From: Parcubacteria group bacterium Gr01-1014_8
Lineage (GTDB): Bacteria > Patescibacteriota > Minisyncoccia > Phycocordibacterales > UBA2100
Length of the DNA: 64,000 bases
Reading direction: 5' to 3'
Assembly: GCA_007376385.1 (NCBI GenBank)
Contig: VMGC01000001.1
Location: 64,001-128,000 of the forward strand
A model generated the notes under the pieces. The model worked only from the letters and a program-made list of their open reading frames with translations. It ran no database searches and had not been told where the DNA came from. Made by a program: the position numbers and the translations under genes. Shown here one piece after another: positions 3,036-53,175 of this stretch (position 1 is its first letter; each line of letters starts with the position of its first letter).

Positions 3036-3060
3036 AAAACCCGCGCAGCGGGTTTTTGTG
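3036..3060 (+). terminator. Rho-independent terminator after hup
   Basis: GC hairpin acccgc-gca-gcgggt followed by tttttgtg; preceded by an A-run, so possibly bidirectional. Confidence 0.7.
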
Positions 3061-3189
3061 TGGGTCAAAGATTTCGTGTAAAGTGTCTCGATACACTCAC
3101 GTGTGCGAGCACGCGACTGGACAATGACCGCCGAAGCGCGCTCTTTTGTGGGCTTGAAGCCCTCTGTTGTTCAGGCTATGGTGGGCAGC

Positions 3190-3260
3190 GCGGGATTCGT
3201 TTAATGGTAGGACATCAGTTTTCCAAACTGAGGACGGGAGTTCGATTCTCCCATCCCGCA
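3190..3260 (+). tRNA. tRNA-Gly(UCC)
   Basis: Cloverleaf read by eye: acceptor GCGGGAT/ATCCCGC, anticodon stem tcagt/actga with loop tt-TCC-aa, T-arm GGGAGTTCGATTCTCCC, discriminator A. The 3' CCA is not encoded (followed by caaa). Confidence 0.85.
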
Positions 3261-3266
3261 CAAAGT

Positions 3267-16142: not shown

Positions 16143-18358
16143 CGACGTCGTTTACCGTGGAAGGCCTTATGAACTTCTCTAAGGTGCTTATCAGTGACGT
16201 GCGTGTACACTTGCGTAGTTGCAATATTTGCGTGGCCCAAAAGTGCCTGAACGGAACGCAAGTCGGCACCATTCTCCAGCAAGTCTGTTGCGAAAGAGTT
16301 GTGAGAAATGAAACCATCGGTAATAAAGTTGTGCGTTGGTTCTACTGTAAAGTCGTAGACAATTGATGGTTCGCTTAGATTCTCAATACGTTTAACGCGT
16401 AACCAGCGAATCGAATCCAGAGAATGTACAAGTCGCAAATGTTCTACGCACAAGTGCTTTACGTTGTTTTCATCGCACGCTTTAATTAAGGACTGTAATA
16501 ACGTTGGCGTTGTGCATATGCGCGTATATCTTTTAAGATATCGAATACCATACTCCTCTCCCAATAGGTGCATAAAACCCTTCTTTTCCAACAAAACTGG
16601 GTACAGAGTCCGCACTATATTTTGTGTTGGCAATGCAATATCGAGGCGCATCCACTTTTTCTTGGACTGTAAATTTTGCTTAAATGTTGGAATTAGTTCC
16701 ACAAATCGATTCTGACTTGGGGGATATGTAACATACAACGTATATATCGTATGTTGAATCGTACGTCCCTGTGGTAATTTAACCATTCTTGTTCTTGGTA
16801 AAAGGATACTCTCAATCGAGAGTCTTAGTAACAACATTTGCACATCCTTTAAGAGTTCTTTACTTGCTGAAAACATTTTTATCGCGCCATTATTTCCTTC
16901 AGCATCGTAATATCCAGCCAAAAATGAACGAATATTTTCTTCTGATTCTTGAAAGAGTTGCGGAGGGACACGTCTGTATTTTGAACGCTGCGTTATACCA
17001 AATGATCGTACTTTTTTAAGAAAATCGACATTGTAAATATTGAGCGCAAAACCATGACCATTTGACAAAGCAACTATTGTTCCGTACCGACCAGTCACAT
17101 GATGCACAATCTCGTTGTACAAATCGATATGTCGCCTGTCTTTGTCGTTCAAGATTATTCCGCGCCTTGCCTCGCTCAAGGTCCCATCGCCGAGAATATA
17201 GCCGAGTAGGCGCCAGAAGTCGGTTGATTCGGTTTCTGCGTGCTTTTCAAGATGCATCTCAATACCGCGCACCCCGGCAACATAATCACCGATCTTCAGT
17301 TCCTGCACCTGAATAGCAGTAATTCCGTTTTCTGTAACTGTGAAAAAACTATGGTACGGAGTACATAGTATTTCCCGTCCATCCGCCCATAGTGAGATCA
17401 TATGGTCGGTTTTATGTGTTTCTTTGTGCGTAATCGCTGCACGGATAAAGCGATTATTGAACCAGTCGAAGCCAAGTACTTTTTTTGTGTCATTGGCGGT
17501 AAATAATTTTTCTGCTGTAGTCAGAGAAGGATTGCCCATGACTCTCGTTTCAGGATGAAGACAATGGCGAATGACGTGAGGAGTCACTTTGCGTGTGATG
17601 CCAGCCCTGATCGCGTACTGTTTCACTATCCGTTCAACAGAGCGGGGGGTGAGCGTCTGAAGTTTTTTGCCAGCTCGCCCATAGCTGACAAACAATGCGC
17701 CCTCCACATCACCGCGCTTCTCCAAATACTCTTTCACGGCTTTCTTTGCAGTAGGAGAGAGAAATACAACGCGGACTTTATCGCCCTTGCCGCGTATTGA
17801 AAATTCATCTCGGGAGAGATCGAGATCTCTATCGAGCGAACAGAGTTCGGAAACACGAAGACCAGTTGAAAAAAATAATTCAAGAATCGCACGGTCACGA
17901 AGTGCCGTCAGCGAATTACCGCTCGGACCTTTCATGAGCCGCTCAAGTTCCGCAGCCGTGATCAAGTCAAGATCCCGCCCACCGACTTTCGCAAGTTCAA
18001 TACGCTCGGGGGAGAGCGATTCAATGTTCTGTTTCCGCATGTATTTCAAAAACGAGCGCAGAGCGATGAGATAGTAATTCTGCGTCTTTTTTTTCATGTC
18101 ACCAGACACTCCCGGTTGACGATTCAACCACAATCGAAATTCGCGAACCAAAGGCTCAGTGAGTTTCGCGGGAGATGCCACCTTCGTATGAGTGAGGAAA
18201 CGAGTCAGATAGCGGTCGTAATTCTCGACCGTTTTTACGCTCCTTCCTTTTTCTATCTCCAAGTATTCGAGAAATTGCGTCTTCATCTCCTGCAAATCGG
18301 ATGCCATGTGTCGATTATACATCCCATGTCGCACAATATTTTTTTCAACCGCCGGCAT
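16139..18358 (-). CDS. xerC: Tyrosine recombinase XerC/XerD-like, interrupted by an in-frame intein (precursor 739 aa)
   Basis: The N-terminus has Xer core-binding and catalytic regions up to ...KVTPHVIRH. The C-terminus, [34 protein letters not shown]..., completes the R-H-S-F-A-T box and carries the catalytic Tyr. A 422-aa insertion lies between them. Confidence 0.85.
16298..17563 (-). mobile_element. Intein (about 422 aa) with LAGLIDADG homing-endonuclease motifs inside xerC/xerD
   Basis: The insert begins Cys (CLHPETRV, block-A-like) and ends HN, followed by Ser(+1). Two LAGLIDADG-like motifs: [11 protein letters not shown] and [11 protein letters not shown]. The flanks join to give a colinear recombinase. 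Codon boundaries checked on the nucleotide sequence (C266 = 17561-17563, N687 = 16298-16300). Confidence 0.8.
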
Positions 18359-35200: not shown

Positions 35201-36145
35201 TTACCGTCCCGGCGTGGGAGACGCTTTATCTATCCAGTCTGACGCAGTGTCGGTGTCTCTTGTCGGCAAGCTTCTTGCCATTGAGTGCCCGTCAGGTACA
35301 ACAGGAACCGACGGACTGAACGCATTCGTGTTCGTGCCCCACGACGCTGCATCTGCGGGCGATGCAGAAATTGAACTGCGAATTCGTACCACATCTCCTC
35401 CATTCGTGAGTCCATTTCCGATGGAGCTACCTAGTATTACGACAACAGTGTCCGAAGGAATATTCCATTTATTCTTTGTATTTTCATTTGCGACAATGAG
35501 CATGTATTTTCCGGGCGCAAGCGTTGTGTTACTTGGCAGAGTATCGGAACCTCCTGCATTTTGGATGATCCAGCCTGAAAGATTTACCGTATTCCCAGTG
35601 CCGTTGTACAACTCCACCCATTCATTATCAGGATCGTCTCCATGTGCCCAGTCGACATCGTAGTAAATTTCATTGATCACAAGCTTCGGTGTCTCCGGAG
35701 GCGGCACAGGACTTGGCGATGGAGAGGGAGATGGCGAAGGTGACGGACTCGGGCCTGGGCTTGGACTTGGTGATGGATTTGGCGGCGGCCTGTATGCTGG
35801 CGCAGCCGGACCGCTCGAGCCCATCATCATTATGGAAATAGCAGGCTGCACATAAATGGGACTGACGGACCACAAGCAGTCATATGGAATACCCGTTAAC
35901 CCTAATAGCCACTGTCCTACATTGCGCGGCGGTCCGAACTGGTACGTTCTTGTCGAGCGCGTCCACACATAATCTCCGGGGACTGGCGGTGAGAGCCTTG
36001 TAAAAATTGTTTCGTTGTAGCAGACGTGATAGACCGTGATGCGCCCGCCGAACGGAAATGCAAGCGCGGGGGCGCTGAACAGCGCCCAGAAAAGCAGAGA
36101 CATCAATATGAACAAGGAAAGCTTCGACGCTAAAGCCATATGCAT
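35201..36145 (-). CDS. Secreted lamin-tail-domain (LTD) protein with (Pro-Ser)n linker
   Basis: N-terminal signal/TM; C-terminal LTD-like pattern (VINEIYYD...EWVELYN.....L.GW.I). Confidence 0.6.
   Translation of the reverse strand: MHMALASKLSLFILMSLLFWALFSAPALAFPFGGRITVYHVCYNETIFTRLSPPVPGDYVWTRSTRTYQFGPPRNVGQWLLGLTGIPYDCLWSVSPIYVQPAISIMMMGSSGPAAPAYRPPPNPSPSPSPGPSPSPSPSPSPSPSPVPPPETPKLVINEIYYDVDWAHGDDPDNEWVELYNGTGNTVNLSGWIIQNAGGSDTLPSNTTLAPGKYMLIVANENTKNKWNIPSDTVVVILGSSIGNGLTNGGDVVRIRSSISASPADAASWGTNTNAFSPSVPVVPDGHSMARSLPTRDTDTASDWIDKASPTPGR
35696..35785. repeat. Low-complexity (Pro-Ser)n coding repeat within LTD protein
   Basis: PNPSPSPSPGPSPSPSPSPSPSPSPVPPP; seen on the plus strand as ggcgatggagagggagatggcgaaggtgac repeats. 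Confidence 0.8.
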
Positions 36146-42797: not shown

Positions 42798-43298
42798 ATG
42801 CAATTTCAAGTACCCCAATTTATTGAGGTCGAGGATAAGATATTCGGTCCACTCACCTTTAAGCAATTCGTCTATGTCGCAGGAGGCGGCGGATTGGCCT
42901 ACCTCATCTGGCGGGTACTCCCCATCTATCTCGCGGCGCCGCTCGTCGCAGGCTCCCTTGGTCTCGGAGCAGCCCTCGCTTTTATGCAGTACAACGGGCG
43001 CCCCTTCATTCTCGCTCTTGAGCACGGCTTTTATTTTTTTCTGCGTTCGAAACTCTACTTATGGAATAATCAGCGGCGAAACAAGAAGCTGGCGGCGTCT
43101 GCAAACGAGCAACATCAACAGACACCAGAAATTTATGTGCCGAAGCTGTCGGAGAGCAGGTTGCACGAACTTGCGTGGAGCCTCGACATCAAGGAGCGGA
43201 TCGCTGCTGGTGTTGCGAATGAGGATGATAGAAATGAAATGCCTCGTTCCCGGCTCGTTGCTCCTATTCGAACCGCCCGCAGCGCTTTAGTGCAATAA
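42798..43298 (+). CDS. PrgI-family (VirB3-like) small membrane protein
   Basis: The N-terminus FQVPQFIEVEDKIFGPLTFKQFVYVAGGGGLAYLIW plus two TM helices matches the PrgI family, which precedes VirB4 in Gram-positive-type T4SS. Confidence 0.6.
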   Translation: MQFQVPQFIEVEDKIFGPLTFKQFVYVAGGGGLAYLIWRVLPIYLAAPLVAGSLGLGAALAFMQYNGRPFILALEHGFYFFLRSKLYLWNNQRRNKKLAASANEQHQQTPEIYVPKLSESRLHELAWSLDIKERIAAGVANEDDRNEMPRSRLVAPIRTARSALVQ

Positions 43299-43304
43299 TA
43301 GAGT

Positions 43305-43976
43305 ATGTCAGAGATCACATCATCAATACCGCGCGTGAGCAGCAAAGCAACCCAAGATTTTGTGCCCGTGCATGAAGTTCGGGATGGCGTCGTTGTCCTC
43401 AAAGATGGAGGCCTTCGAGCAATACTCCTAGCCTCGTCATTGAACTTCGCACTGAAATCCGAGGACGAGCAAACCGCATTTATCGTTCAATTCCAGAATT
43501 TTCTCAACTCACTGGATTTTTCCGTACAGATATTCGTGCAATCACGAATGCTCGACATACGCCCCTACATCGCCACCTTGGAGTCACAGTTCAAACAACA
43601 ATTGGACGACCTTATGCGCATACAGATACGCGAATACATCGGCTTCATAAAAAGCTTCACTGAAGCCGCTAACATCATGACGAAGAATTTCTTTATCATC
43701 GTGCCGTACTCGCCCGCGATCATCCAAACCGGTCAAGGAATACTCGGCAAATTGCCCTTTACCGGCAAAAAGAAAAATTCTGAAGAAGAGAACCGCACTT
43801 TTGAAGAACAAATATCGCAGCTCGAGCAGCGCATCTCCATCGTCCAGCAGGGGCTCATCCGCACCGGCGTCCGCACCGTCCAGCTTGGAACTGAGGAAGC
43901 GATAGAATTGATGTACAAAATGTTCAACCCCGGTGAAGAAGGGAAGCCAATGGCCGTTCCTGAATCGCAAAAATAG
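43305..43976 (+). CDS. Hypothetical protein between prgI-like and virB4 (gene G)
   Basis: 223 aa soluble; stop TAG 43974-43976 and virB4 ATG at 43978. The N-terminal part (VPVHEVRDGVVVLKDGGLRAILLASSLNFALKSEDEQ) weakly recalls VirB4/TrbE N-terminal segments. Confidence 0.45.
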   Translation: MSEITSSIPRVSSKATQDFVPVHEVRDGVVVLKDGGLRAILLASSLNFALKSEDEQTAFIVQFQNFLNSLDFSVQIFVQSRMLDIRPYIATLESQFKQQLDDLMRIQIREYIGFIKSFTEAANIMTKNFFIIVPYSPAIIQTGQGILGKLPFTGKKKNSEEENRTFEEQISQLEQRISIVQQGLIRTGVRTVQLGTEEAIELMYKMFNPGEEGKPMAVPESQK

Positions 43977-43977
43977 T

Positions 43978-45969
43978 ATGGCGCTCCTCGATCTATTCAA
44001 GAAAAAAGGGCCGCAGTCCGTAGTCTTGCCCGTATTGCCTGAAGAGATATTCCGCACGGGAGTTCTTGACCTTCAAGACGTCATCGCACCTCACGCTCTC
44101 CGCATTTCACCTCGCGAACTCGACCTTGGGGAAAAGATCGCACGCACATTCTTCGTTATCTCGTATCCGCGTTTTCTTACGACAGGATGGTTCGCGCCCA
44201 TCATTAACATGGATAAAATAATCGACATTTCGATATTCATTCACCCGATGGATACGAATGAAATGCTTCGAAAATTCCAAAAGAAAGTGGCAGAGGTTCA
44301 GAGCCAGATATCAACGCGGGAAGGGAAGGGCATGGTCAGAGACCCTATGCTTGACACCGCCTACGCTGACCTTGAAAAATTGCGTGATTCACTCCAGCAA
44401 GCACAGGAGCGCATCTTTGAAGTAGGATTGTATCTCACCATTTACGGCTCCACTCGCGAAGAAGTTGATAAGATAGAAAGCGAGGTACGCTCAATTCTTG
44501 AATCGCGCCTTGTGTATATCCGTCCCGCGCTATTCCAGCAAGAGCAAGGCTTCAGAAGCGTTCTGCCGACGGCAACCGATGAACTGAATGTGCACACAAA
44601 ATTGAATTCAGCCCCTCTTTCATCGGTATTTCCGTTCATTTCCTTCGACCTGACGTCCGACCGGGGAATTCTATATGGCATAAACCGCCATAATTCATCT
44701 CTCATTCTTTTTGATCGCTTCTCGCTTGAGAACTACAATTCAGTGACCTTTGCCAAGTCCGGTGCGGGAAAATCCTACACGACAAAACTTGAGATCCTGC
44801 GTTCGTTGATGTTCGATACAGAAGTCATCGTCATCGACCCCGAACGTGAATACGAATATCTCGCAGAGACGGTCGGCGGACGTTATTTCAATATCTCACT
44901 CTCCTCGGAGCACCACATCAATCCCTTTGACTTGCCGATACCGCGAGAAGATGAGAACCCCGGGGATGTGCTGCGCAACAATATCATCACGCTTGTCGGA
45001 CTTTTCCGTATCATGCTCGGAGGTTTGACGCCCGAAGAAGACGCCATCATCGACAAGGCCATCACCGAAACGTATGCCCTGAAAGACATCACGCAAGATG
45101 CGAATTTCGCAGCAGTCGAGCCGCCGCTTCTTTCCGACTTCGAACTCGTACTCTCCGGCATGGAGGGCAGCGATTCACTGGTTCAGAGACTCTCGAAATA
45201 TACAAAGGGCACGTGGTCAGGATTTATGAACCGCCCGACGAACGTTGACATGAATAAAAAATTGGTCGTCTTCTCGGTGCGAGACATGGAGGACGACCTG
45301 AAACCTGTCGCTATGTACATCATCACGCACCACATCTGGAATACCGTGCGAAAGGAACTCCGTAAACGACTCCTGGTGATCGATGAGGCATGGTGGATGA
45401 TGCGTTCCCAAGATACTGCGTCTTTCCTGTTTTCAATCGCAAAACGTGGACGTAAATACTATCTTGGAATCTCTACCATCACGCAAGACGTATCAGACTT
45501 TTTGAACTCCCCGTATGGAATACCGATGATAACCAACTCTTCTATCCAGCTCCTGCTCCGCCAATCGCCAACATCGGTCGACCTCGTGCAACAGACATTC
45601 AAATTGTCAGACGAGGAAAAATACCTGCTCTTGGAATCCGATGTAGGTGAAGGCATTTTCTTCGCAGGGCTGAAGCACGTAGCCATAAAAGTCATTGCTT
45701 CGTATACGGAAGACCAAATAATCACGTCCGACCCATCGCAGATACTTGCCATCCGCAAAGCGAAACAGGAACTGGTCTTGGCAAACGAGCCACAGAATGT
45801 AGCCCAGACGACCCCGATATCTCAAACCAAGGAAGCGGCCGCTATACTCCAAAGCTCGGCGTTAAAACCCGCTGAAGTGCCAAATACGCCAACGCCGCAG
45901 GCATCACCAACATCCGCGCCAAATACTACCCGACAAGTAGCATCAATTTTGGAGAGACCGGGTAATTGA
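43978..45969 (+). CDS. virB4: VirB4/TrbE/CagE-family type IV secretion ATPase
   Basis: 664 aa from MALLDLFKKK.... Gram-positive-type VirB4 N-terminus (L.D.IAP...IG....RT..V..YPR), Walker A FAKSGAGKS, Walker B LLVIDEAW, conserved C-terminal motifs. Confidence 0.85.
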   Translation: MALLDLFKKKGPQSVVLPVLPEEIFRTGVLDLQDVIAPHALRISPRELDLGEKIARTFFVISYPRFLTTGWFAPIINMDKIIDISIFIHPMDTNEMLRKFQKKVAEVQSQISTREGKGMVRDPMLDTAYADLEKLRDSLQQAQERIFEVGLYLTIYGSTREEVDKIESEVRSILESRLVYIRPALFQQEQGFRSVLPTATDELNVHTKLNSAPLSSVFPFISFDLTSDRGILYGINRHNSSLILFDRFSLENYNSVTFAKSGAGKSYTTKLEILRSLMFDTEVIVIDPEREYEYLAETVGGRYFNISLSSEHHINPFDLPIPREDENPGDVLRNNIITLVGLFRIMLGGLTPEEDAIIDKAITETYALKDITQDANFAAVEPPLLSDFELVLSGMEGSDSLVQRLSKYTKGTWSGFMNRPTNVDMNKKLVVFSVRDMEDDLKPVAMYIITHHIWNTVRKELRKRLLVIDEAWWMMRSQDTASFLFSIAKRGRKYYLGISTITQDVSDFLNSPYGIPMITNSSIQLLLRQSPTSVDLVQQTFKLSDEEKYLLLESDVGEGIFFAGLKHVAIKVIASYTEDQIITSDPSQILAIRKAKQELVLANEPQNVAQTTPISQTKEAAAILQSSALKPAEVPNTPTPQASPTSAPNTTRQVASILERPGN

Positions 45970-46027
45970 CCTCCAAAACATACTGAAGCTAAGGATTAAC
46001 ATCAGACGTTGAAAAACGACTCAATTC

Positions 46028-46468
46028 ATGGATGAAAATCCTCTAGACCAGGTACCAAGTGACGAGGTCGCTGAGTTATCGGTCATGGATCCGCAAGAGG
46101 AGCCTGACTTTCCATTCGTCATCGTGGCAACGGCCGTTCTAAAAGACCTGCTAGACGGATTGGATCTATCTATCATCTTCATAATCCTGACGACTGTATT
46201 ATCCGTTCTGCTGACAATAATTTTGTTCCTATGGGTTGTCGGTAAATTGGGTGGCGGCTGGTGGAAGCGGCAGTTAATAAGATGGTTGTGGACTCGGTAC
46301 GTAGCAACAATTCTTTTAGAATTTATCCCGTTTCTCAAGATGGTACCAGCGGCCACAATTTTCGTTCTCATGGCCCATCACCACGAGAAAAAATCTGTGA
46401 AATTATTCAATGCAGCCTTGGAAGCCTTCCGCGACGGATTATTCAAGGCGCTGCGACAAAAAAACTGA
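46028..46468 (+). CDS. Small polytopic membrane protein (possible VirB2-like pilin candidate)
   Basis: 146 aa; acidic N-terminus then 2-3 TM helices; directly downstream of virB4. Confidence 0.35.
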   Translation: MDENPLDQVPSDEVAELSVMDPQEEPDFPFVIVATAVLKDLLDGLDLSIIFIILTTVLSVLLTIILFLWVVGKLGGGWWKRQLIRWLWTRYVATILLEFIPFLKMVPAATIFVLMAHHHEKKSVKLFNAALEAFRDGLFKALRQKN

Positions 46469-46569
46469 ACGCCTGAAGGGACCCCCTGGTGGCTGCAGAT
46501 CGTTTGCCAATTGCCTGGAATTCACCGCCCTAACATGCAAAACAAATAAGGGATGAAGTCGGCTGTATA

Positions 46570-47619
46570 ATGATGCCAATGTCATCGCGGTTGTTCTTCA
46601 GTATTCCGGCGTTCGCTCTTTTGTTACTTTTTGCTGCGCCCGTATACGCACAATACATCCTTCCTCCTTCTGCTGACCCAATATTATTCAAGCTTAGTCC
46701 TTCGAATCCCGAGCCCGGCTCAATCGTCCATATTTTTGCAAATAGTCTGACATTTGACCTCAAAAAGACTCACGTAACATGGTACGTAAATGACGCTCTG
46801 CTACTTGAAGGCGACGGTCTTACGGAAGTTGATGTGACGCTTGGCTCAACAGGTTCTGCAACTCACGTCATTGCTCTCGCTGAGAAAGACGGCGAGACGC
46901 TGGCCAGCGCAGAAGTATTCATGCGCCCCGCAGAAGTTGATCTCTTGTGGGAAGCGAATTCATATGTTCCCCCCTTCTATAAGGGGAAACATCTCGCTTC
47001 ACCAAATTCGGTAGTTCGTGCAGAAGCCTATGCGCGATTGCGCGATCAAGAGGGAAATCTGATACTGCCTTCCGAAATCGAGTATACATGGCACCGTAAC
47101 GGCGCACTGCTCGCGTCCCAATCCGGCCGAGGGAAATCTTACGCCTCTTTCCCTGCTCCGCTCCTATTCGGAAGCGACACAATATCAGTCGAGGTAACCT
47201 CGATAGATGAGAGTGTGAGTGCTAGCGCGACAACTATTATTCCCTCCGTGGACCCATTTGTCGTCCTCTATCAGGAACATCCTCTGTTTGGGATCTTTTA
47301 TCACGCAGCTGTTGCACGTGCTGCATTCCTGCCAGACGTCGAAGCGACGTTCGTTGCCATTCCATATTTTGCGAGCAGCATCACGAGCCACTCCGACGCA
47401 AGACTATTATATGCCTGGCGCGTGAACGACAGGCCAATAACAGTGGATGGAGCAGAGCCTCATCGCTTGACCATCAATGCTGAAAATTCAACGGGAGAAG
47501 CGCACGTCGAAGTCGCTGTTTCGCACCTCACTAACTACTTTATGGACGCTCGCGGAGCGTGGGACATAGCATTCGACAGAATACCGGGCGGGGACCCATT
47601 CTCCACAAACGGACTATGA
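46570..47619 (+). CDS. Secreted protein with three tandem about 100-aa Ig-like repeats
   Basis: Signal peptide (…AAPVYA/QY); repeated modules starting VTWYVNDALL, YTWHRNGALL and YAWRVNDRPI. Confidence 0.5.
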   Translation: MMPMSSRLFFSIPAFALLLLFAAPVYAQYILPPSADPILFKLSPSNPEPGSIVHIFANSLTFDLKKTHVTWYVNDALLLEGDGLTEVDVTLGSTGSATHVIALAEKDGETLASAEVFMRPAEVDLLWEANSYVPPFYKGKHLASPNSVVRAEAYARLRDQEGNLILPSEIEYTWHRNGALLASQSGRGKSYASFPAPLLFGSDTISVEVTSIDESVSASATTIIPSVDPFVVLYQEHPLFGIFYHAAVARAAFLPDVEATFVAIPYFASSITSHSDARLLYAWRVNDRPITVDGAEPHRLTINAENSTGEAHVEVAVSHLTNYFMDARGAWDIAFDRIPGGDPFSTNGL

Positions 47620-48980
47620 TTCATACGGATATTTCCCGCATATTCAAGTACGCAAGTATCGGGCTCATCTTCGTTCTTATTATAGGGCTTGGCGGATGGT
47701 ACATATACTTGCGCACGCAAACATCATCAATTGACGCGGCGTCAAGCGGACGCGGGTTCCGCGCGAGCATTCCCACTTCAAGTTCGCTGGGGAGTACTTT
47801 CACCAACATAATTTCCGGATTCAGAAGAACCCCCAGTGAAGCGAGCGAAAATCCGCCAGGAATAAGCCCGCAAAGCTTTTCGAGTGGTATTTCTAACTTT
47901 TCCGAAGGCGTAAAAACTGCGTTCGGTAACTTGATATCAGGACTCGGCTCCCTCGTCCCTGGTTCCGCAAGCTCAACGCCGATAAAACAAACCCCTCGTC
48001 TTTGGCAGGTGCAAAAAAGCCCCGTCGCTGGATTCAGGTTCATCGCTGCAACAACGACAACGCTTCGCTTTATGGAACGCTCAAGCGGCTATATTTTCGA
48101 CGTGAACCCGGCGACAGGGAAAACAACGCGAGTAACAAATACTCTTATCCCGAAAGTATATGATGCACGGTTCGCCAGGGACGGTTCTCCGGTTATAAAA
48201 ACTCTTGAAAACGACGTGCGGACAACCTATAGCGCGACATTAGCATCAAGTTCGAACGAAACTCTTGCCACACTCGTTCTAACGCCGCTAGGAAATAACG
48301 TGGCAGATGCAGTACCAAACGCTACATCACGCGAGCTTCTCTCGCTCATCGAAAGTGAGAATGGATCCTCTATTGTGCGCTCAGGATGGAACGGCTCTAA
48401 ACCAACGACGCTCTTTAGCTCATCGCTCTCGGGATGGAGAATGTACTGGACCTATGACAACAAGGTCTACATCGCGCAAAAAGCGGCGACAGGAGTCCCA
48501 GGTAACGCGTACGAACTTCTTGGCAATGGAGAACTTGTTCCACTAGCGCGTTCTGTTTCGGGGCTCACGATAGTGCCAAAAGCAACTTCTACTGCTCTGC
48601 TTATTGCTTCTGATGCTGGCGTTGTGTCTACCCTTGTCAGGCCAAATGCTGACACAGCGTTCATAATACTACCCGTGAAGACGATAGTCGACAAATGTCT
48701 ATGGGCTCCAGGAAATAATCTGATCGCGTATTGCGCAGTGCCATCGAGCATTCCTTCAAAACAATTCTTGGATGAGTGGTATCGAGGGGAGATACATACG
48801 GCTGACTCGTGGTGGCGCGTTGACGCGAGCGCAGGCTCGGCGCAATTGCTGTTTTCGCCCGCGCGCGAGAGCGGCTCTTCGCTTGATGCGGAAACCCCGA
48901 GAATAGACAATAGCGGGACGTACATAGCATTCCTCGATTCACATGACAAGTCACTGTGGATACTGCGCATCAATGAATAG
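47616..48980 (+). CDS. N-terminally anchored extracytoplasmic protein (possible beta-propeller)
   Basis: ATGA start/stop overlap with the upstream gene (translational coupling); one TM (ASIGLIFVLIIGLGGWYIY), Ser/Gly-rich linker, large C-domain. Confidence 0.5.
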   Translation: MIHTDISRIFKYASIGLIFVLIIGLGGWYIYLRTQTSSIDAASSGRGFRASIPTSSSLGSTFTNIISGFRRTPSEASENPPGISPQSFSSGISNFSEGVKTAFGNLISGLGSLVPGSASSTPIKQTPRLWQVQKSPVAGFRFIAATTTTLRFMERSSGYIFDVNPATGKTTRVTNTLIPKVYDARFARDGSPVIKTLENDVRTTYSATLASSSNETLATLVLTPLGNNVADAVPNATSRELLSLIESENGSSIVRSGWNGSKPTTLFSSSLSGWRMYWTYDNKVYIAQKAATGVPGNAYELLGNGELVPLARSVSGLTIVPKATSTALLIASDAGVVSTLVRPNADTAFIILPVKTIVDKCLWAPGNNLIAYCAVPSSIPSKQFLDEWYRGEIHTADSWWRVDASAGSAQLLFSPARESGSSLDAETPRIDNSGTYIAFLDSHDKSLWILRINE

Positions 48981-48982
48981 CC

Positions 48983-49138
48983 ATGAAAAAAGTTGCATCT
49001 AAGGTGCGCAGCGCGCGGAAGACGTTCGCATTTATCTCCCTTTCCGGCCTGAATGGTCCGGAATTCGCTCCGTTCCTCACCGCCGCGTTCAATAGCCAGA
49101 ATTTTCCCACATTCGTGAACGCTCTCTTTAAGGGTTGA
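48983..49138 (+). CDS. Small ORF (51 aa), paralog 1 of duplicated module
   Basis: MKKVASKVRSARKTFAFISLSGLNGPEFAPFLTAAFNSQNFPTFVNALFKG*; starts 2 nt after the upstream gene's stop; contains the 99-bp repeat. Confidence 0.3.
   Translation: MKKVASKVRSARKTFAFISLSGLNGPEFAPFLTAAFNSQNFPTFVNALFKG
49035..49133 (+). repeat. 99-bp perfect direct repeat, copy 1
   Basis: tctccctttccggcctgaatggtccggaattcgctccgttcctcaccgccgcgttcaatagccagaattttcccacattcgtgaacgctctctttaagg is identical at 49645..49743. Confidence 0.9.
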
Positions 49139-49589
49139 ACATTGTGGGCAGGATGAAGCCACTTCCTGCCGCTCCGAGGCTTCCTACGAGCACCGCGCCT
49201 GCGGAAAGCACTTTTACCCCGCCAGACCCGGATCAAACTGTGGTCGCCCCCGTGAATAGCAACGTTGATCGATGGTGTACAACATCAAGTTCTGGAGGAG
49301 CCACACTATGTTTTACCGGGCCTCAAGCGCAGCGAAATTGCAACGCGCAATACGCATCAAGAGGCATCGATAGGCAGTGCACGTCCTTCCCAGCTCAATA
49401 AAGGTTCCTCGGAGCAAGCTCTGAGGTATTGAACCTGTGTTTGCGCATATTGCCCATTTAAAAATAATCATACATCGCTAGAGATGCCCTGCACTCGCGA
49501 TATAATAGAACTGCAGACAACTATAGTGCCTTGCTGCCAGACATTACGACATGCGTAAAGATATGTGTTCGCGACCTGCCTCGCGTACA

Positions 49590-49871
49590 ATGAAAAAAAT
49601 ATTGTCCAAGTTTCGGGAGCTGCCTCACGCGTTCCAGGGTTTCGTCTCCCTTTCCGGCCTGAATGGTCCGGAATTCGCTCCGTTCCTCACCGCCGCGTTC
49701 AATAGCCAGAATTTTCCCACATTCGTGAACGCTCTCTTTAAGGAACAATTCACGCAACCGCCTGCACAGAATTCGTTCTTCGGAGGAGCAGGCGGACAAT
49801 TTGATCCTTCGCTCAATGGAGTTGGCGTCTCAGGTAATGAAATAGGGAACCCAAACCCATCATCACCGTAG
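49590..49871 (+). CDS. Small ORF (93 aa), paralog 2 of duplicated module with Gly-rich C-terminus
   Basis: MKKILSKFRELPHAFQGFVSLSGLNGPEFAPFLTAAFNSQNFPTFVNALFKEQFTQPPAQNSFFGGAGGQFDPSLNGVGVSGNEIGNPNPSSP. It shares the SLSGLNGPEF...FVNALFK core with paralog 1. Confidence 0.35.
   Translation: MKKILSKFRELPHAFQGFVSLSGLNGPEFAPFLTAAFNSQNFPTFVNALFKEQFTQPPAQNSFFGGAGGQFDPSLNGVGVSGNEIGNPNPSSP
49645..49743 (+). repeat. 99-bp perfect direct repeat, copy 2
   Basis: Identical to 49035..49133 by eye over about 99 nt; the flanks diverge. Confidence 0.9.
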
Positions 49872-49872
49872 T

Positions 49873-50376
49873 TTATACATCGCTCGTATATCTAATCACG
49901 ACTCGTCGACTGCGTCCCTCCCCTTGTGATTCTGTTTTAACGTTCGGAGAATCTGCGAGCGTCGTGTGCACAATGAGGCGCTCATAGGCACTCATGGGAG
50001 AGAGCTCCACATCGTATTGAAATGAACGAGCTCGTTCTGCCATCATCAAGGCTTTCGCCTGCAAGTCCTTTATCTGTTTTGAACGATAGTCATTTACGTC
50101 CACCAAAAAATGAGTCTCGTTTGAATTTTCATCAGGTGCGATCGGGACAGTGCGATTGCCCATGAGTCGCTTTTCGACTATTTTTTTTACCAGCTGATCT
50201 ATCGCATGTACCGTATCTCCGTGCATCCCGATAAGGGAGCGCGCATCGTCCGCCTGGATAGCAAATACCGATTGCCCGGCTATTTCTTCGTACTTGACAC
50301 CGGAGTACGCCGCACCCATCGCTGAAAGCGTCTCTTTTAGGACTGATCCGACGATCTCATTGAGCTCAGACTTCAT
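49873..50376 (-). CDS. jag: Jag/KhpB-family RNA-binding protein (KH + R3H)
   Basis: 167 aa; KH-like (IGMHGDTVHAIDQLV) and R3H (SPMSAYERLIVHTTLADSPNVKTESQGEGRSRRVVI); conserved position downstream of yidC. Confidence 0.8.
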   Translation of the reverse strand: MKSELNEIVGSVLKETLSAMGAAYSGVKYEEIAGQSVFAIQADDARSLIGMHGDTVHAIDQLVKKIVEKRLMGNRTVPIAPDENSNETHFLVDVNDYRSKQIKDLQAKALMMAERARSFQYDVELSPMSAYERLIVHTTLADSPNVKTESQGEGRSRRVVIRYTSDV

Positions 50377-50420
50377 CCAGCATTCTTATCACAAAAAGAG
50401 AGCGCCTCCAAATTTCGCCC

Positions 50421-51188
50421 TCAAACCCCCGGCGCCGTAGGCTGCCTGACCTGTTCTGTTGCTTTTTTTTCTTTAAGACGTCGTCCCATGGCAAGCTCCT
50501 GCAGAATCATGAACGTGTTGCTCGCGACCCAGTATAACGGAACAGCAGCGGAAACGGTGTATGCGATGCCACCGATCATGATAGGGAGCACGTAACGGGC
50601 CTGCAGATCGAAACTCCGCGCCATATCCGCAGAGAAAGAGCCGTCCGATTGCGTGGCAGGTTTGCGCGGTCCCATCGAGAGCCGTGCATATATCAATTGC
50701 GTAATCCCGGCAAAAAACGCGAGCAGAATGCTATGCGAACCCATGTTGATGAGACCCAGAAATTCCATGTTCACACTTTCCGGGGTGGGTACGAATGAAT
50801 ACAGATATTCTGGGTGCACATTCGGCAACCCTCCCTTCCAAAAAACCCAGTAGAGGCCGAACAAAATGGGCAGCTGTAAAAGTACTAGAAAAAAGGAGGC
50901 GAACGGACGAATGCTTTTCTCACGATACAGAGCAAAGATGGCGCGCGCCTGTTCCTCCTGCTTGTCCTTGAATTTCTTTTTTATTTCGTCGATTTCCGGA
51001 GCGACTTCTCTCATCGCCGCTTGCGTGCGCACAGCTTGGCGCGAAAGGGGAAAGAGAATGACGCGGACAACGAGGGTCAGAATGACGACCGCGATACCAA
51101 CATCATGCAGAGGAACAACATCTACAAAAAAAACAAGCCCGTTGTAGAGCGGGGTGTAAACGAGTGCGTTGAATATAGCAGAGATCAT
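50421..51188 (-). CDS. yidC: Membrane protein insertase YidC/Oxa1 (short form)
   Basis: 255 aa; 60KD_IMP pattern and polytopic topology. Confidence 0.9.
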   Translation of the reverse strand: MISAIFNALVYTPLYNGLVFFVDVVPLHDVGIAVVILTLVVRVILFPLSRQAVRTQAAMREVAPEIDEIKKKFKDKQEEQARAIFALYREKSIRPFASFFLVLLQLPILFGLYWVFWKGGLPNVHPEYLYSFVPTPESVNMEFLGLINMGSHSILLAFFAGITQLIYARLSMGPRKPATQSDGSFSADMARSFDLQARYVLPIMIGGIAYTVSAAVPLYWVASNTFMILQELAMGRRLKEKKATEQVRQPTAPGV

Positions 51189-51529
51189 TCGGCGTATTGT
51201 ACTGCCTCTCGTATCAGCGACGCAATGTCCTTCGAGAGTTCCGCTCTCGGCGCCTTCAGGGCAGCGGGTTTAATGTGCAACACGAACGCAACAGGTCTTT
51301 TAATGTGGGCAAGCGCTGCACGAGCTAATTCTCTGCACGCGCGTTTCGCAGAATTTCTGTCTACTGCACGCTTCGCGGTTTTTTTTGAAATAACACACGC
51401 GCACTTAGGGCCCGCCGCCTCTTGGAGGATGATTGTCATCAACGAATAGTACTTGCCGCGAAAATGTGCCGAACGAACGCTTGAAAGATGTTTCAAGTCA
51501 CTCCGGCTAATGCGTCTTGCAGCAGGCAT
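51185..51529 (-). CDS. rnpA: Ribonuclease P protein component
   Basis: 114 aa, basic; AVDRNSAKRACRELARAA matches the RnpA RNR-motif region; conserved rpmH-rnpA-yidC order. Confidence 0.85.
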   Translation of the reverse strand: MPAARRISRSDLKHLSSVRSAHFRGKYYSLMTIILQEAAGPKCACVISKKTAKRAVDRNSAKRACRELARAALAHIKRPVAFVLHIKPAALKAPRAELSKDIASLIREAVQYAE

Positions 51530-51664
51530 CTAGAGCGCCAACGTGGCTCGGCCCTTCCTGCGGCGGCGCATAATGATGCGTCTGCCGTTCTTGGTCTTTA
51601 GTCGCGCTCGAAATCCGTGTGTCCGCGCGCGTTTGCGCTTCTTTGGTTGGTATGTTCGTCGCAT
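51530..51664 (-). CDS. rpmH: 50S ribosomal protein L34
   Basis: Not in the ORF track (<60 aa). The minus-strand translation [44 protein letters not shown] is the canonical L34 sequence. Its stop abuts the rnpA start. Confidence 0.9.
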
Positions 51665-51816
51665 CGGGCCAACATATCATAATGAAGAATATTTGACCAC
51701 TCCGAAAATACACGTCGACCAAATATCCCCACTCTATCCACAGCTTGTGAACATACCTCCTTGAGCGCGTATGCGCTTCACGTCTCCTACTTCACGCGTA
51801 TAATGACTCAACTCTC
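51665..51816. promoter_or_regulatory. rpmH-dnaA divergent intergenic region with DnaA-box-like motifs
   Basis: Contains ctcTATCCACAgc and a ttgtgaaca variant, plus AT-rich stretches; classic position of dnaA promoter/oriC-associated boxes. Confidence 0.5.
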
Positions 51817-53175
51817 GTGCGTATGATGTCCAATCGTGAACTTTGGCAGAATGCTTTGGTGCAAATTGAATTGGGCACGTCTGAAGCAAGTTTCAGAACG
51901 TGGTTTCGGGGAACAGACATAATTGGCAGAGAGGGAGGCTCCGTAAACATCGCGGTCCCCAGCAAAATCGTTAAGGAATGGCTTTCCGACAAGCACAACA
52001 AGCTCATTTTGGGCATATTGCGTACCCTAGACAGTACAATTCGCTCAATAGAGTATTCAGTGCATCGCTCCGCAATACCGGTAGAGAGAAAGAACGAGAA
52101 ATCCCCACAACCGCCCCAAAATGCCTCGCTTGACCTTCAGTCTCTGTACATAGATAAACGAGACAATCTGAACCCTCGCTACACCTTTGAGACGTTCGTA
52201 GTAGGGCCATTCAATCAACTAGCGCATGCCGCGGCGAAAGCTGTCATAGAAAGACCCGGGCTCGCTTATAATCCGTTATTCATCTACGGCTCGACCGGAC
52301 ACGGTAAAACGCACCTCATTCAGGCAATAGGCAATTACTTTAAAAAAACGCATGCGAATAAAAAAGTCTTTTACGTGACGTCTGAACGCTTTACGACTGA
52401 TTTTTTGAACGCAATACGCGCTGGAAAAGCAAGCGGATTCAAGGATCAGTACCAGCAATACGATGTTCTCATCATGGATGACGTGCAATTCATCGCAAAT
52501 ACAGAAAAAACACAAGAGGAACTATTCCACGTCTTCAATCGACTGCACGATGACAACAAACAGATAGTATTTTCGTCAGACAAACATCCGAACATGATGC
52601 CCGGCTTCGAAGACAGGCTCAAGGGACGATTCAGCGCGGGTATGATAGCGGAAATTCCAGAGCCTGATGTCGAATCGCGCATCTCCATCATCCGCGCCAA
52701 AATAGAACAGCTCGGGTTTAACATCCCGGACGACATTATCTCTTACATTGCAGAAAGCGTGCGCGGAAATATCCGCGAACTGGAGGGTATTTTGAATATG
52801 ATCGTGTGCAAATCACAGCTCAAGGGCAAGGTTATATCGCACGCAGACGTCCGGATGCTGATAAAACACAACGTGCGGCCGAATAAAGGCGTTTCTATGG
52901 ATGAAGTAGTGAGACGCATCGCGCAATACTACGAAGTAGCGGAGAAAAGCATTTACGAGAAGACAAGAAAGAAAGAGGTGGTGAAGCCGCGCCAGGTCAT
53001 TATGTATATTTTGCGCGAAGAATTCAGTGTTTCATATCCTTCTATCGGAGAAAAACTCGGGGGACGCGATCACACGACGGTCATCCATTCATGCGAGAAG
53101 ATAAAAGAAGAGGCAAAAAGAAATCCATCACTCGAACAAGAGTTGGAGCATGTGCGTTCGCTGGTGCATGCATAA
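51817..53175 (+). CDS. dnaA: Chromosomal replication initiator protein DnaA
   Basis: 452 aa; AAA+ Walker A GSTGHGKTHL, Walker B LIMDDVQF, C-terminal DnaA-box-binding HTH. Confidence 0.95.
   Translation: MRMMSNRELWQNALVQIELGTSEASFRTWFRGTDIIGREGGSVNIAVPSKIVKEWLSDKHNKLILGILRTLDSTIRSIEYSVHRSAIPVERKNEKSPQPPQNASLDLQSLYIDKRDNLNPRYTFETFVVGPFNQLAHAAAKAVIERPGLAYNPLFIYGSTGHGKTHLIQAIGNYFKKTHANKKVFYVTSERFTTDFLNAIRAGKASGFKDQYQQYDVLIMDDVQFIANTEKTQEELFHVFNRLHDDNKQIVFSSDKHPNMMPGFEDRLKGRFSAGMIAEIPEPDVESRISIIRAKIEQLGFNIPDDIISYIAESVRGNIRELEGILNMIVCKSQLKGKVISHADVRMLIKHNVRPNKGVSMDEVVRRIAQYYEVAEKSIYEKTRKKEVVKPRQVIMYILREEFSVSYPSIGEKLGGRDHTTVIHSCEKIKEEAKRNPSLEQELEHVRSLVHA

What the first reader, a model, noticed from the sequence alone, without database searches (positions are those of the whole stretch)
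48983..49871. 99-bp perfectly identical direct repeat encoding the shared core of two small paralogous ORFs with divergent C-termini, immediately downstream of the T4SS-like cluster
Positions 49035-49133 and 49645-49743 are identical by eye, while the flanking sequence diverges. In both copies the repeat lies in the same frame inside a short ORF that starts MKK: (1) 51 aa ending ...FVNALFKG*, and (2) 93 aa continuing ...FVNALFKEQFTQPPAQNSFFGGAGGQFDPSLNGVGVSGNEIGNPNPSSP. Both copies share the core SLSGLNGPEFAPFLTAAFNSQNFPTFVNALFK. Downstream of copy 1, a +1-frame ORF (49135-49401) encodes a Cys-containing tail (…WCTTSSSGGATLCFTGPQAQRNCNAQYASRGIDRQC…), so copy 1 may be frameshifted or have a different tail. 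A conserved N-terminal module joined to variable C-terminal regions, kept identical at the nucleotide level, suggests gene conversion or a cassette system. Examples would be a leader plus variable core as in secreted peptide, bacteriocin or RiPP precursors, or alternative substrate/pilin subunits for the adjacent apparatus. The repeat could alternatively be a cis-acting RNA element. The antisense ORFs that share ESVHECGKILAIERGGEERSEFRTIQAGKGD are simply the reverse strand of this repeat.
Basis: seen in the sequence. Interest (0 to 1): 0.65.

Follow-up and report, generated by a model that had tools for sequence, protein, structure and literature searches.

The report
Two pilin genes garbled by assembly
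The 99-base repeat and its two "small ORFs" are most likely what an assembler left of two adjacent full-length secretion-system pilin genes that share an identical ~339-base centre, a gene family already known in these tiny symbiotic bacteria.

Summary
Positions 49035-49133 and 49645-49743 are identical, this is the only long repeat in the window, and the ORFs read as described.

The arrangement is almost certainly not the organism's. Two independent assemblies of the same strain have flanks 100% identical to the window. They continue past the repeat into a two-helix hydrophobic pilin body that is absent from the window.

Their contig ends fall exactly one k-mer inside a longer repeat of about 339 nt. 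A de Bruijn simulation of a tandem model reproduces all three ends to the base. The window as given predicts no break.

The source project assembled with idba_ud defaults. From memory the default maximum k is 100, so k-1 = 99, the length of the surviving repeat in both copies.

Reconstructed, the locus holds two tandem VirB2-like T4SS pilin genes (PF18895) of about 201 and 180 aa:
- the leaders are diverged but homologous;
- the mature pilin cores are identical;
- the C-terminal tails are unrelated.

They lie at the end of the VirB4 cluster next to jag-yidC-dnaA. Tandem pilin arrays near oriC are already described in Patescibacteria. An identical core joined to different tails is a modest new twist. 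Read-level confirmation is still needed.

The parts
48983..49034 (+). Leader (A1) of pilin gene 1. Its ATG lies 3 nt after the stop of the upstream 454-aa cluster gene.
   Evidence: The same sequence is contiguous with the 454-aa gene in the independent ENA contig L008. It is homologous to leader A2 but diverged: 0 of 1000 shuffles reach the alignment score.
49035..49133 (+). Repeat copy 1: the first 99 nt of the real ~339-nt identical block. It encodes the mature N-terminus SLSGLNGPEFAPFLTAAFNSQNFPTFVNALFK.
   Evidence: In L008 it continues as GAGCTATTTCC..., which encodes GAISIGAIIAVLQL, the first hydrophobic helix. Third-codon-position substitution pattern against orthologues.
49133..49134 (.). 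Mis-join 1. About 187 nt of pilin body (the two hydrophobic helices) are missing here, which shifts the frame and creates the false stop of 'ORF1'.
   Evidence: L008 and L006 differ from the window at exactly this point. Sizes come from L013 coordinates. Simulation.
49134..49186 (+). The last 53 nt of the real repeat, a linker encoding LNIVGRMKPLPAAPRLP, as retained in copy 1.
   Evidence: It matches L006 5655-5707 at 100%. There it sits between the second hydrophobic helix and tail 2. The branch point lies exactly at 49186|49187 in both the ENA and Logan contigs.
49187..49401 (+). C-terminal tail 1 of pilin gene 1 (71 aa, Pro-rich then 4 Cys) plus the stop codon. This is the '88-aa ORF' of the finding.
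   Evidence: It stays open in the frame of the intact repeat through to the stop. No homologues were found. No independent assembly was recovered for this piece.
49402..49589 (+). Intergenic spacer between the two pilin genes. It contains one promoter-like site at 49479-49506 (TAGAGA-16-TATAAT).
   Evidence: The site is no more than chance expectation: 1 found against 1.3 expected.
49590..49644 (+). Leader (A2) of pilin gene 2. It is the orthologue of the leader of the single pilin gene in relatives.
   Evidence: The leader plus core (49590-49741) is 84% identical in DNA to L013 778-929. The leader aligns with those of P0153, P0003 and P0002.
49645..49743 (+). Repeat copy 2: the first 99 nt of the second copy of the ~339-nt block.
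   Evidence: The last 139-mer of ENA contig L008 starts exactly at the first base of the repeat, as expected if both leaders feed into the repeat followed by the pilin body.
49743..49744 (.). Mis-join 2. About 261 nt are missing: 240 nt of the repeat plus the 21 nt GTTCAGCAAGCCCGGGAATGC that begin tail 2. The loss is in frame, so 'ORF2' stays open.
   Evidence: L006 and L007 both read ...GGCTTCCTA-GTTCAGCAAGCCCGGGAATGC-AACAATTC... here.
49744..49871 (+). C-terminal tail 2 of pilin gene 2 (lacking its first 7 codons) plus the stop codon. Its motif QQFTQPPAQNSFFGG...NGVGV is shared with other family members.
   Evidence: 100% identical to L006 and L007. Similar tails occur in P0153, P0004, P0171 and P0174.
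42798..48980 (+). The T4SS-like cluster that the pilin genes terminate: PrgI/VirB3-like (42798-43298), TraC-like (43305-43976), VirB4 (43933-45969), and three conserved genes of unknown function (46028-46468, 46570-47619, 47616-48980).
   Evidence: Pfam results. Annotations on L008. The same gene order occurs in L001, L010 and L012, and in part in L013.
49873..53175 (.). Origin-proximal neighbours: jag/R3H (49873-50376, minus strand), yidC (50421-51188, minus strand), rnpA, and dnaA (51817-53175, plus strand).

Best explanation
**What is there.** The organism carries two tandem, full-length VirB2-like T4SS pilin genes at the end of its VirB4 cluster.
- Gene 1 is leader A1 (52 nt) + a ~339-nt block + tail 1, about 201 aa.
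- Gene 2 is leader A2 (55 nt) + the same ~339-nt block + tail 2, about 180 aa.
- The block encodes the whole mature pilin: a short helix, two hydrophobic helices and a Pro-rich linker. It is identical between the two genes over at least its first and last 139 nt.

**How the window's arrangement arose (inferred).** The deposited MAG was assembled with IDBA-UD at final k = 100.
- Contigs entering the repeat stopped after k-1 = 99 nt.
- The scaffolder then butt-joined them to the next contigs, losing 187 nt in copy 1 and 261 nt in copy 2.
- This produced the '99-nt repeat', the 51-aa and 93-aa 'ORFs' and the out-of-frame 88-aa 'ORF'.

**How it probably works (inferred from the family).** Each pilin inserts in the membrane by its helical hairpin, loses or retains a short basic leader, and is polymerised by the VirB4 machine. 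The variable C-terminal tails are exposed on the outside. Two isoforms with one polymerisation core and different tails would give the pilus two surface chemistries. The sharp step from 100% identity to about 55% identity (leaders) or no similarity (tails) points to gene conversion or a recent partial duplication of the core.
For: **The window's junctions are contradicted by independent assemblies.**
- L008, L006 and L007 are 100% identical to the window in the flanks.
- They diverge exactly at 49134/49135 and at 49743/49744.
- They encode ...ALFK-GAISIGAIIAVLQL and HIMRDAMVGLLLLMGIWLILRQINPQLLE-LNIVGRMKPLPAAPRLP-SSASPGMQ-QFTQ....

**The contig ends fit a longer repeat.**
- The last 139 nt of L008 begin at the first base of the repeat.
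- The first 139 nt of L006 end at 49186.
- Logan contig L007 starts 30 nt (k-1 of 31) before 49186.
- A de Bruijn simulation of the tandem 339-nt model reproduces all three ends (6558, 7416, 7525).
- The window as given has no branch node at k = 139.

**The repeat length is in frame.** L013 coordinates give 139 + 61 + 139 = 339 nt, which is 113 codons.

**The assembler explains the 99 nt.** SRR8863434 belongs to PRJNA512237. That project used 'idba_ud with default parameters'. From my own knowledge the default maxk is 100, so k-1 = 99.

**Intact close homologues have the reconstructed architecture.** P0153 (197 aa) and P0003 (176 aa) match it almost residue for residue.

**Family assignment.**
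- PF18895 scores 29.6 and 29.9 bits for the two reconstructions, 29.9 for P0153 and 29.8 for P0003, against a gathering threshold of 26.6.
- Two hydrophobic segments are present, and the model shows a helical hairpin.
- The family is large, with 7,880 representatives.

**The repeat is coding.** Differences against L013 are 0/1/18 by codon position.

**Boundaries.** The leaders are homologous and the tails are not.

**Context.** VirB2-like pilin arrays next to virB4 and dnaA are documented in Patescibacteria (PMC12102498).
Against: - No reads or coverage could be examined.
- The middle 61 nt of the block were not recovered. They were borrowed from L013, so identity there is assumed.
- The piece between the copies (49187-49644: tail 1, spacer, leader A2) is known only from the MAG. 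Attempts to recover it from other assemblies failed or were uninformative.
- The right-hand joins keep 53 nt of the repeat in copy 1 and lose 21 nt of tail 2 in copy 2. The k-1 rule alone does not predict this. It needs an extra assumption about how the scaffolder treats negative gap estimates (99-46 = 53; 99-120 = -21), which I recall but could not verify.
- The sample and run behind the ENA assembly are unknown to me. A minor deletion variant in the population cannot be excluded.
- All four syntenic relatives (L001, L010, L012, L013) have one pilin gene here. None of 80 metagenome loci has two subfamily copies. The tandem pair is therefore unusual, or is usually broken by assemblers.
- The fold search gave no significant match to solved pilins.
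Confidence: 0.78

Rival explanations
1. The window is correct as deposited. This strain carries two real, independently truncated pilin-gene remnants (pseudogenes or small proteins of 51 and 93 aa) that share a 99-nt segment kept identical by gene conversion.
For: The sequence is a public MAG contig of 407,897 bp. ORF2 stays open and is annotated. The origin of the ENA assembly is unknown to me, so it could represent a sister population.
Against: - Two other assemblies with 100% identical flanks contain the pilin body instead.
- The window's arrangement predicts no contig break at k = 139, and at k = 31 it predicts breaks at different positions from those observed.
- Both supposed deletions would start at the same base, exactly k-1 of the documented assembler, into the block.
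- The cut falls inside the long helix 42-74 of the model, not at a domain boundary.
- Both pilin genes would be dead in an otherwise intact and conserved T4SS cluster.
Confidence: 0.06
2. There is only one pilin gene per genome at this locus. The second leader and second tail come from a co-occurring strain or from another locus, and the tandem order is a scaffolding chimera.
For: Every syntenic relative has one pilin gene here. None of 80 related metagenome loci has two. Piece X was not recovered independently.
Against: - X runs from tail 1 through a 188-nt spacer into leader A2 as one unique 458-nt stretch. Some genome must therefore carry the block on both sides of it.
- Leader A1 is physically joined to the 454-aa gene and tail 2 to jag in independent contigs.
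- Leader A2 and tail 2 are the orthologous pair in relatives. That leaves A1 with tail 1 upstream, which is the tandem order.
- The contig ends show exactly one in-branch and one out-branch position, as two copies would give.
Confidence: 0.1
3. The 99-mer is a cis-acting RNA or DNA element (riboswitch-like, a recombination site, or the template/variable repeat pair of a diversity-generating retroelement) rather than coding sequence.
For: Perfect nucleotide identity with abrupt edges.
Against: - No Rfam match at E <= 1 in 46000-53000.
- The fold z-score is -0.94, with 31 of 200 shuffles folding as well.
- Substitutions against four orthologues concentrate at third codon positions.
- No reverse transcriptase was found among the window's large ORFs.
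- There are no adenine-specific mismatches, because the copies are identical.
Confidence: 0.02
4. The ORFs are leader-plus-core precursors of secreted or modified peptides (RiPP or bacteriocin).
For: Small size, an MKK start, and a Cys-containing downstream ORF in the window as deposited.
Against: - The small size is an artefact of the assembly.
- The shared part is the conserved mature pilin domain of a family with 7,880 representatives.
- No modification enzymes, peptidase-containing ABC exporter or immunity genes are nearby.
- Cys-containing tails are common C-terminal extensions in this pilin family.
Confidence: 0.02

Closest known systems
VirB2-like pilin genes and tandem pilin arrays of the Patescibacteria T4SS (Pfam PF18895 T4SS_pilin; Microb Genom 2025, PMC12102498)
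   Same: - The same Pfam family.
- The same position, at the end of a VirB4/PrgI(VirB3)/VirB6-like cluster without a relaxase, next to rnpA-rpmH-dnaA-dnaN.
- Two pilin genes in tandem.
- Variable C-terminal extensions.
- The paper reports 441 arrays of 2-11 pilin genes in 383 assemblies.
   Different: - Reported arrays are highly diverged, with mean identity of 25% and a maximum of 54%. Here the whole mature pilin domain (113 codons) appears identical, and only the leaders and tails differ.
- In the deposited MAG neither gene would be recognised as a pilin, because the body is missing. ORF1 and ORF2 gave only a weak, unrelated Pfam hit, far below threshold.
VirB2 paralogue arrays of Bartonella, Anaplasma and Rickettsia T4SSs
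   Same: Tandem amplification of the major pilin gene next to a T4SS in a host-dependent bacterium. The literature interprets this as surface variation or host-range adaptation (as cited in PMC12102498).
   Different: Those paralogues differ along their whole length. Here the variation is confined to a C-terminal appendage and the leader. The lineage is different, and the T4SS is of the monoderm MPF-FATA-like class.
Neisseria pilE/pilS antigenic variation (type IV pilin gene conversion)
   Same: A resemblance in how it may work only: identical conserved pilin segments next to variable segments, with sharp identity boundaries suggesting gene conversion.
   Different: - An unrelated pilin family (type IV pili, not T4SS).
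- The pilS copies are silent and lack a promoter and the N-terminus. Here both copies appear to be complete genes.
- No evidence of switching was obtained.
Repeat-induced local misassembly in de Bruijn-graph scaffolds (IDBA-UD)
   Same: - Both left-hand pieces end exactly k-1 = 99 nt into a repeat longer than k.
- The joins are unsupported by other assemblers.
- From my own knowledge, IDBA-UD scaffolding errors at repeats are a recognised problem that some groups correct by read re-mapping.
   Different: No N-gap was left in the deposited sequence. The exact trimming (46 and 120 nt) can only be explained by an unverified recollection of how the scaffolder treats negative gap estimates.

Membership tests
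T4SS_pilin (PF18895) / VirB2-like pilin | Match to the family HMM above the curated threshold (26.6 bits) | tested here: met
   Reconstructed genes 1 and 2 score 29.6 and 29.9 bits (20 of their residues are borrowed from L013). The intact orthologues P0153 and P0003 score 29.9 and 29.8 bits. The window's ORF1 and ORF2 as deposited do not hit this family.
T4SS_pilin (PF18895) / VirB2-like pilin | Small protein with two hydrophobic helices forming a hairpin | tested here: met
   Kyte-Doolittle peaks lie around residues 51-65 and 93-101 of the reconstructions. The AlphaFold model of P0153 has helices 42-74 and 78-108 with pLDDT of 79-87. This feature is not present in the window ORFs as deposited.
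T4SS_pilin (PF18895) / VirB2-like pilin | Encoded in a cluster with VirB4 and other T4SS components | tested here: met
   PrgI/VirB3-like at 42798-43298, VirB4 (P-loop_TraG, AAA_10) at 43933-45969, and a TraC-like gene. The gene order is conserved in L001, L010 and L012.
T4SS_pilin (PF18895) / VirB2-like pilin | Structural similarity to solved conjugative pilins (TraA, VirB2, TrbC) | tested here: inconclusive
   Foldseek against the PDB gave a best E-value of 1.1 with no pilin among the top 50. A profile search of PDB sequences found nothing relevant. A helical hairpin is too simple a fold for this test to discriminate.
T4SS_pilin (PF18895) / VirB2-like pilin | Forms an extracellular pilus or conduit | not testable with these tools
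   This needs microscopy or biochemistry.
Tandem pilin array with gene conversion (cassette-like variation) | Two or more complete pilin genes adjacent in one genome | tested here: inconclusive
   Inferred from the geometry of the contig ends and the simulation together with piece X of the MAG. No read or contig spans both genes.
Tandem pilin array with gene conversion (cassette-like variation) | Identity between paralogues exceeds identity between orthologues, with sharp tract boundaries | tested here: met
   The paralogues have 0 differences in the 278 recoverable nt. Orthologue identity to L013 over the same parts is 79-88%. The leaders are diverged homologues (29 of 52 A1 bases identical in the alignment; significance), and the tails are unrelated.
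Diversity-generating retroelement (template/variable repeat pair) | Adenine-specific mismatches between the repeats, and a nearby reverse transcriptase | tested here: not met
   The copies are identical. No reverse transcriptase was found among the ORFs scanned.
RiPP or bacteriocin precursor | Short precursor next to modification, export or immunity genes | tested here: not met
   The neighbours are T4SS genes, jag, yidC and dnaA. The short ORFs are truncation artefacts.
Known structured RNA (Rfam) | Covariance-model match or unusually stable fold | tested here: not met
   No match at E <= 1. The fold z-score is -0.94.

The most novel reading that the evidence does not exclude
The two pilin genes form a recombination-based tail-switching unit. 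The ~339-nt identical core is kept homogeneous by gene conversion and serves as a crossover site. Recombination across it would swap or delete leader/tail combinations (for example an A1-core-tail 2 single gene plus an excised A2/tail 1 circle). An episymbiont's T4SS pilus would then have a variable outer surface for host recognition or phage evasion. Such identical-core arrays would be systematically missed in short-read MAG surveys, which report at most 54% identity within arrays.
Probability: 0.12. Interest if true: 0.6.

Novelty: new member of a known kind. Interest (0 to 1): 0.25.

Why it matters
**For this finding.** The striking features are most likely products of the assembler, not of biology. 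These are the exact 99-nt repeat, the tiny paralogous ORFs and the frameshifted Cys-rich ORF. Any peptide or RNA hypothesis built on them would be wasted effort.

**For the organism.** The locus encodes the major pilin of the Patescibacteria T4SS, probably in two isoforms. According to the literature this machine is conserved and sits near the origin of replication, and it proved essential in the one Patescibacteria strain tested experimentally. The deposited MAG hides both pilin genes.

**For the field.** Pilin paralogues with identical cores break short-read assemblies. Surveys of pilin arrays in MAGs may therefore under-count recently converted or duplicated pilins and understate within-array identity. 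A pilin pair with one polymerisation core and two unrelated surface tails would be a tidy natural experiment on what the tails do. That remains to be shown.

Tried and rejected
- **Rfam scan of 46000-53000 and RNA fold of the 99-mer.** Nothing was found, so the RNA-element idea was dropped.
- **Pfam on the window's ORF1, ORF2 and the 88-aa ORF.** Only a weak, unrelated hit (REC114-like, E about 0.07-0.09, far below threshold).
- **tblastn of the relative's pilin against the window.** The hydrophobic body is absent in all six frames, so it has not simply moved elsewhere or been frameshifted in place.
- **DGR and RiPP readings.** No reverse transcriptase or modification enzymes in the window.
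- **Recovery of the middle piece X from independent assemblies.**
  - An exact look-up of the predicted Logan partial product found nothing on record.
  - The cluster look-up of nine predicted products was uninformative, because even the two positive-control partial genes seen on L006 and L008 are not in that collection.
- **Homologues of tail 1.** None found.
- **Reference-genome scan with P0003.** One distant locus only (L009, 42% identity), which I did not pursue.
- **Fold search of the P0153 model against the PDB and profile search of PDB sequences.** No significant or relevant hits.
- **Microhomology at the two junctions as a sign of real deletions.** By eye, none fits the observed junction sequences.
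- **Tian et al. 2020 (PMC7137472) as the possible source of the MAG.** Rejected, because its runs and BioProject differ.
- **Promoter and terminator scan.** No more sites than chance.
Full report
**1. The observation**

In the window, 49035-49133 and 49645-49743 are identical over 99 nt and lie 610 nt apart. No further copy exists even with 3 mismatches, and none arises in shuffles. It is the only repeat of 40 nt or more in the 64 kb.

The ORFs are as described:
- 48983-49138, 51 aa;
- 49590-49871, 93 aa (a longer version starts at 49551);
- 49135-49401, 88 aa.

The antisense ORFs are the reverse strand of the repeat. ORF2 is an annotated hypothetical protein of the MAG 'Parcubacteria group bacterium Gr01-1014_8', on a contig of 407,897 bp.

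**2. Context**

Upstream is a T4SS-like cluster:
- PrgI/VirB3-like, 42798-43298;
- TraC-like, 43305-43976;
- VirB4, 43933-45969;
- three conserved genes with no Pfam family (146, 349 and 454 aa).

Downstream on the other strand are jag (R3H) and yidC, followed by dnaA and dnaN. No reverse transcriptase, peptide-modification enzyme or known RNA family lies nearby.

**3. The repeat is coding sequence of a pilin gene**

Only one other protein in the 5.8-billion-protein collection matched ORF2. This was P0002 (145 aa), from a fully syntenic locus (L001: VirB4, three unknown genes, P0002, jag, yidC, dnaA, dnaN).
- P0002 has the same leader and core and then two hydrophobic helices.
- It hits PF18895 T4SS_pilin just below threshold.
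- An exhaustive HMMER search shows it belongs to a large family (7,880 representatives at E <= 0.001). The matches span core plus helices, and many members carry C-terminal extensions.
- Several members pass the Pfam threshold.

Against orthologues, the 99-mer's substitutions sit at third codon positions. Against L013 the counts are 0/1/18, with 17 synonymous and 1 non-synonymous change. The frame is therefore right and the protein is under purifying selection. The RNA fold is unremarkable, with z = -0.94.

**4. The pilin body is missing from the window, but not from the organism**

tblastn of P0002 against the window matches only residues 6-74, once in each copy. Nothing matches residues 75-145 in any frame. 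Homology to L001 stops exactly at the 3' edge of the repeat in both copies.

Exact look-ups of the flanking genes found independent assemblies of the same strain: two ENA MEGAHIT k139 contigs (L008, L006) and a Logan contig of SRR8863434 (L007). They are 100% identical to the window over 6.5, 5.6 and 5.0 kb and then diverge precisely at the repeat's 3' ends.
- L008 reads leader A1, the repeat, then GAGCTATTTCCATCGGCGCTATTATTGCGGTTCTGCAGCT. This encodes ...ALFK-GAISIGAIIAVLQL, the first hydrophobic helix.
- L006 (reverse complement) reads HIMRDAMVGLLLLMGIWLILRQINPQLLE, then the window's 49134-49186 (LNIVGRMKPLPAAPRLP), then 21 nt absent from the window (SSASPGM), then the window from 49744 (QFTQPPAQ...SSP*), then jag.

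**5. Geometry of the contig ends**

- The last 139 nt of L008 start at the first base of the repeat.
- The first 139 nt of L006 end at 49186.
- L007 starts 30 nt before 49186.

These are the signatures of branch nodes at the two edges of a repeat longer than k. There is an in-branch from two leaders and an out-branch to two tails.

L013 is the closest intact relative, at 81-84% nt identity, with a single pilin gene encoding P0153. Its coordinates size the block at 139 + 61 + 139 = 339 nt, or 113 codons.

I built the tandem model: left flank, A1, the 339-nt block, 49187-49644, the block again, the 21 nt, then 49744 onward. I then computed de Bruijn branch nodes.
- They fall exactly at the observed ends (6558, 7416, 7525).
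- The window as deposited has no branch node at k = 139.
- At k = 31 it has branch nodes only at the edges of the 99-mer, which is not what is seen.

**6. Why 99**

SRR8863434 belongs to PRJNA512237, the Ohio aquifer study (Athens, Greene and Licking counties; samples include October 2014). [quoted passage not shown] From my own knowledge, IDBA-UD's default maximum k is 100, so a contig running into a long repeat ends after k-1 = 99 nt. That is the length retained in both copies.

The right-hand pieces equal the next contig minus 46 nt (99-46 = 53 nt of the block kept) and minus 120 nt (99 nt of the block plus 21 nt of tail 2 lost). This is what would happen if the scaffolder skipped bases for a negative gap estimate without checking the overlap. 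I recall IDBA behaving this way but could not verify it.

The losses are 187 nt, which shifts the frame and produces ORF1's stop and the separate 88-aa ORF, and 261 nt, which is in frame so ORF2 stays open.

**7. Reconstruction**

- Gene 1: 52 + 339 + 215 nt, 201 aa.
- Gene 2: 55 + 339 + 21 + 128 nt, 180 aa.

Twenty residues in the loop between the helices are borrowed from L013. Both reconstructions pass PF18895, at 29.6 and 29.9 bits. They align almost residue for residue with P0153 and P0003.

The family alignment shows the architecture:
- a variable leader, either a short basic MKK...FQG or a classical signal peptide ending AxA;
- a mature start FV(S/P)L(S/T)G, which is exactly where the repeat starts;
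- APF(L/M)TxAF...FVNAxFK;
- helix 1, a loop, and helix 2 ending ...QINPQLLxL;
- a variable tail.

The AlphaFold model of P0153 has helices 29-38, 42-74 and 78-108 (pLDDT 72-87 over blocks 31-110) and a disordered tail. The window's cut point falls inside helix 42-74.

Tail 2's motif recurs in P0153, P0004, P0171 and P0174. Tail 1 (4 Cys) has no detectable relatives, but Cys-containing tails are common in the family.

**8. Evolution of the pair (inferred)**

- The paralogues are identical over the 278 recoverable nt, whereas the orthologue in L013 is 79-88% identical there.
- The leaders are diverged homologues: 0 of 1000 shuffles reach the score, and 29 of the 52 A1 bases are identical in the alignment.
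- The tails are unrelated: 183 of 1000 shuffles match or beat the score.
- Leader A2 and tail 2 are the orthologous pair.
- Relatives have one gene at this position, and 80 metagenome loci of the subfamily have one copy each.

The upstream gene is therefore a lineage-specific addition. Its mature domain was either recently copied from the resident gene or homogenised with it.

**9. Comparison with what is known**

PMC12102498 reports the following for Patescibacteria:
- VirB2-like pilins (PF04956/PF18895) in 1,948 assemblies, lying near virB4 in 1,135 of them;
- 441 tandem arrays of 2-11 pilin genes, with mean within-array identity of 25% and a maximum of 54%;
- frequent placement of the T4SS next to dnaA, dnaN, rnpA, rpmH and ksgA.

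The locus here is a member of that kind. Its particular feature is an identical core with different tails. It is invisible in the deposited MAG.

**10. Limits**

- No reads, depth or assembly graphs could be examined.
- The middle 61 nt and the piece 49187-49644 lack independent confirmation.
- Copy number could exceed two.
- The structural test of pilin membership was inconclusive.

**Verdict**

The headline features are an assembly artefact, and the real genes belong to a known family. Interest is low to moderate.

Noticed in passing
window 16139-18358 (-): A 739-aa XerC/D-type tyrosine recombinase (Phage_integrase plus an N-terminal SAM-like domain) is interrupted by an intein (Intein_splicing spanning residues 292-687, with LAGLIDADG_3 at 475-556).
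   Followed up: no
L001 3314-7024 (GCA_964373725.1, CAYJVW010000020): The VirB4 of the syntenic relative is 1,236 aa and carries an intein with a LAGLIDADG domain. The window's VirB4 (678 aa) has none.
   Followed up: no
window 46028-48980 (+): Three genes lie between VirB4 and the pilin genes: 146 aa (hydrophobic), 349 aa (N-terminus resembling a signal peptide) and 454 aa (N-terminal membrane segment). They have no Pfam family. Where the contigs reach far enough, they are conserved in order in L001, L010, L012 and L013, so they are probably unnamed T4SS components.
   Followed up: partly
window 3060-4442 (+) and 3190-3261: tRNA-Gly(tcc) lies inside the mechanically listed 460-aa ORF. Its trypsin-like domain begins at residue 207, so the true start of that gene must be downstream of the tRNA.
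   Followed up: no
window 49744-49871; P0153, P0004, P0171, P0174: Tail 2's motif (QQFT..PQNSFFGG..NGVGV) is shared with distant family members. In P0153 and P0004 the equivalent tail carries a QGCG..GCG cysteine pair that the window's tail 2 has lost.
   Followed up: partly
L016 1-231, L037 2708-3004, L090 1-222: In three of 80 related metagenome loci the pilin gene is cut by a contig end. This could reflect similar repeat-induced breaks, meaning hidden pilin paralogues, or it could be chance.
   Followed up: no
window 48983-49138 and 49135-49401: ORF1 (51 aa) and the 88-aa ORF are not in the 15-billion-protein collection, whereas ORF2 is. Only ORF2 therefore seems to have been called as a gene in the public record.
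   Followed up: partly
window 35201-36145 (-): A 314-aa protein with a lamin tail domain (PF00932, E = 6e-16) lies between ksgA and the start of the T4SS-like cluster.
   Followed up: no
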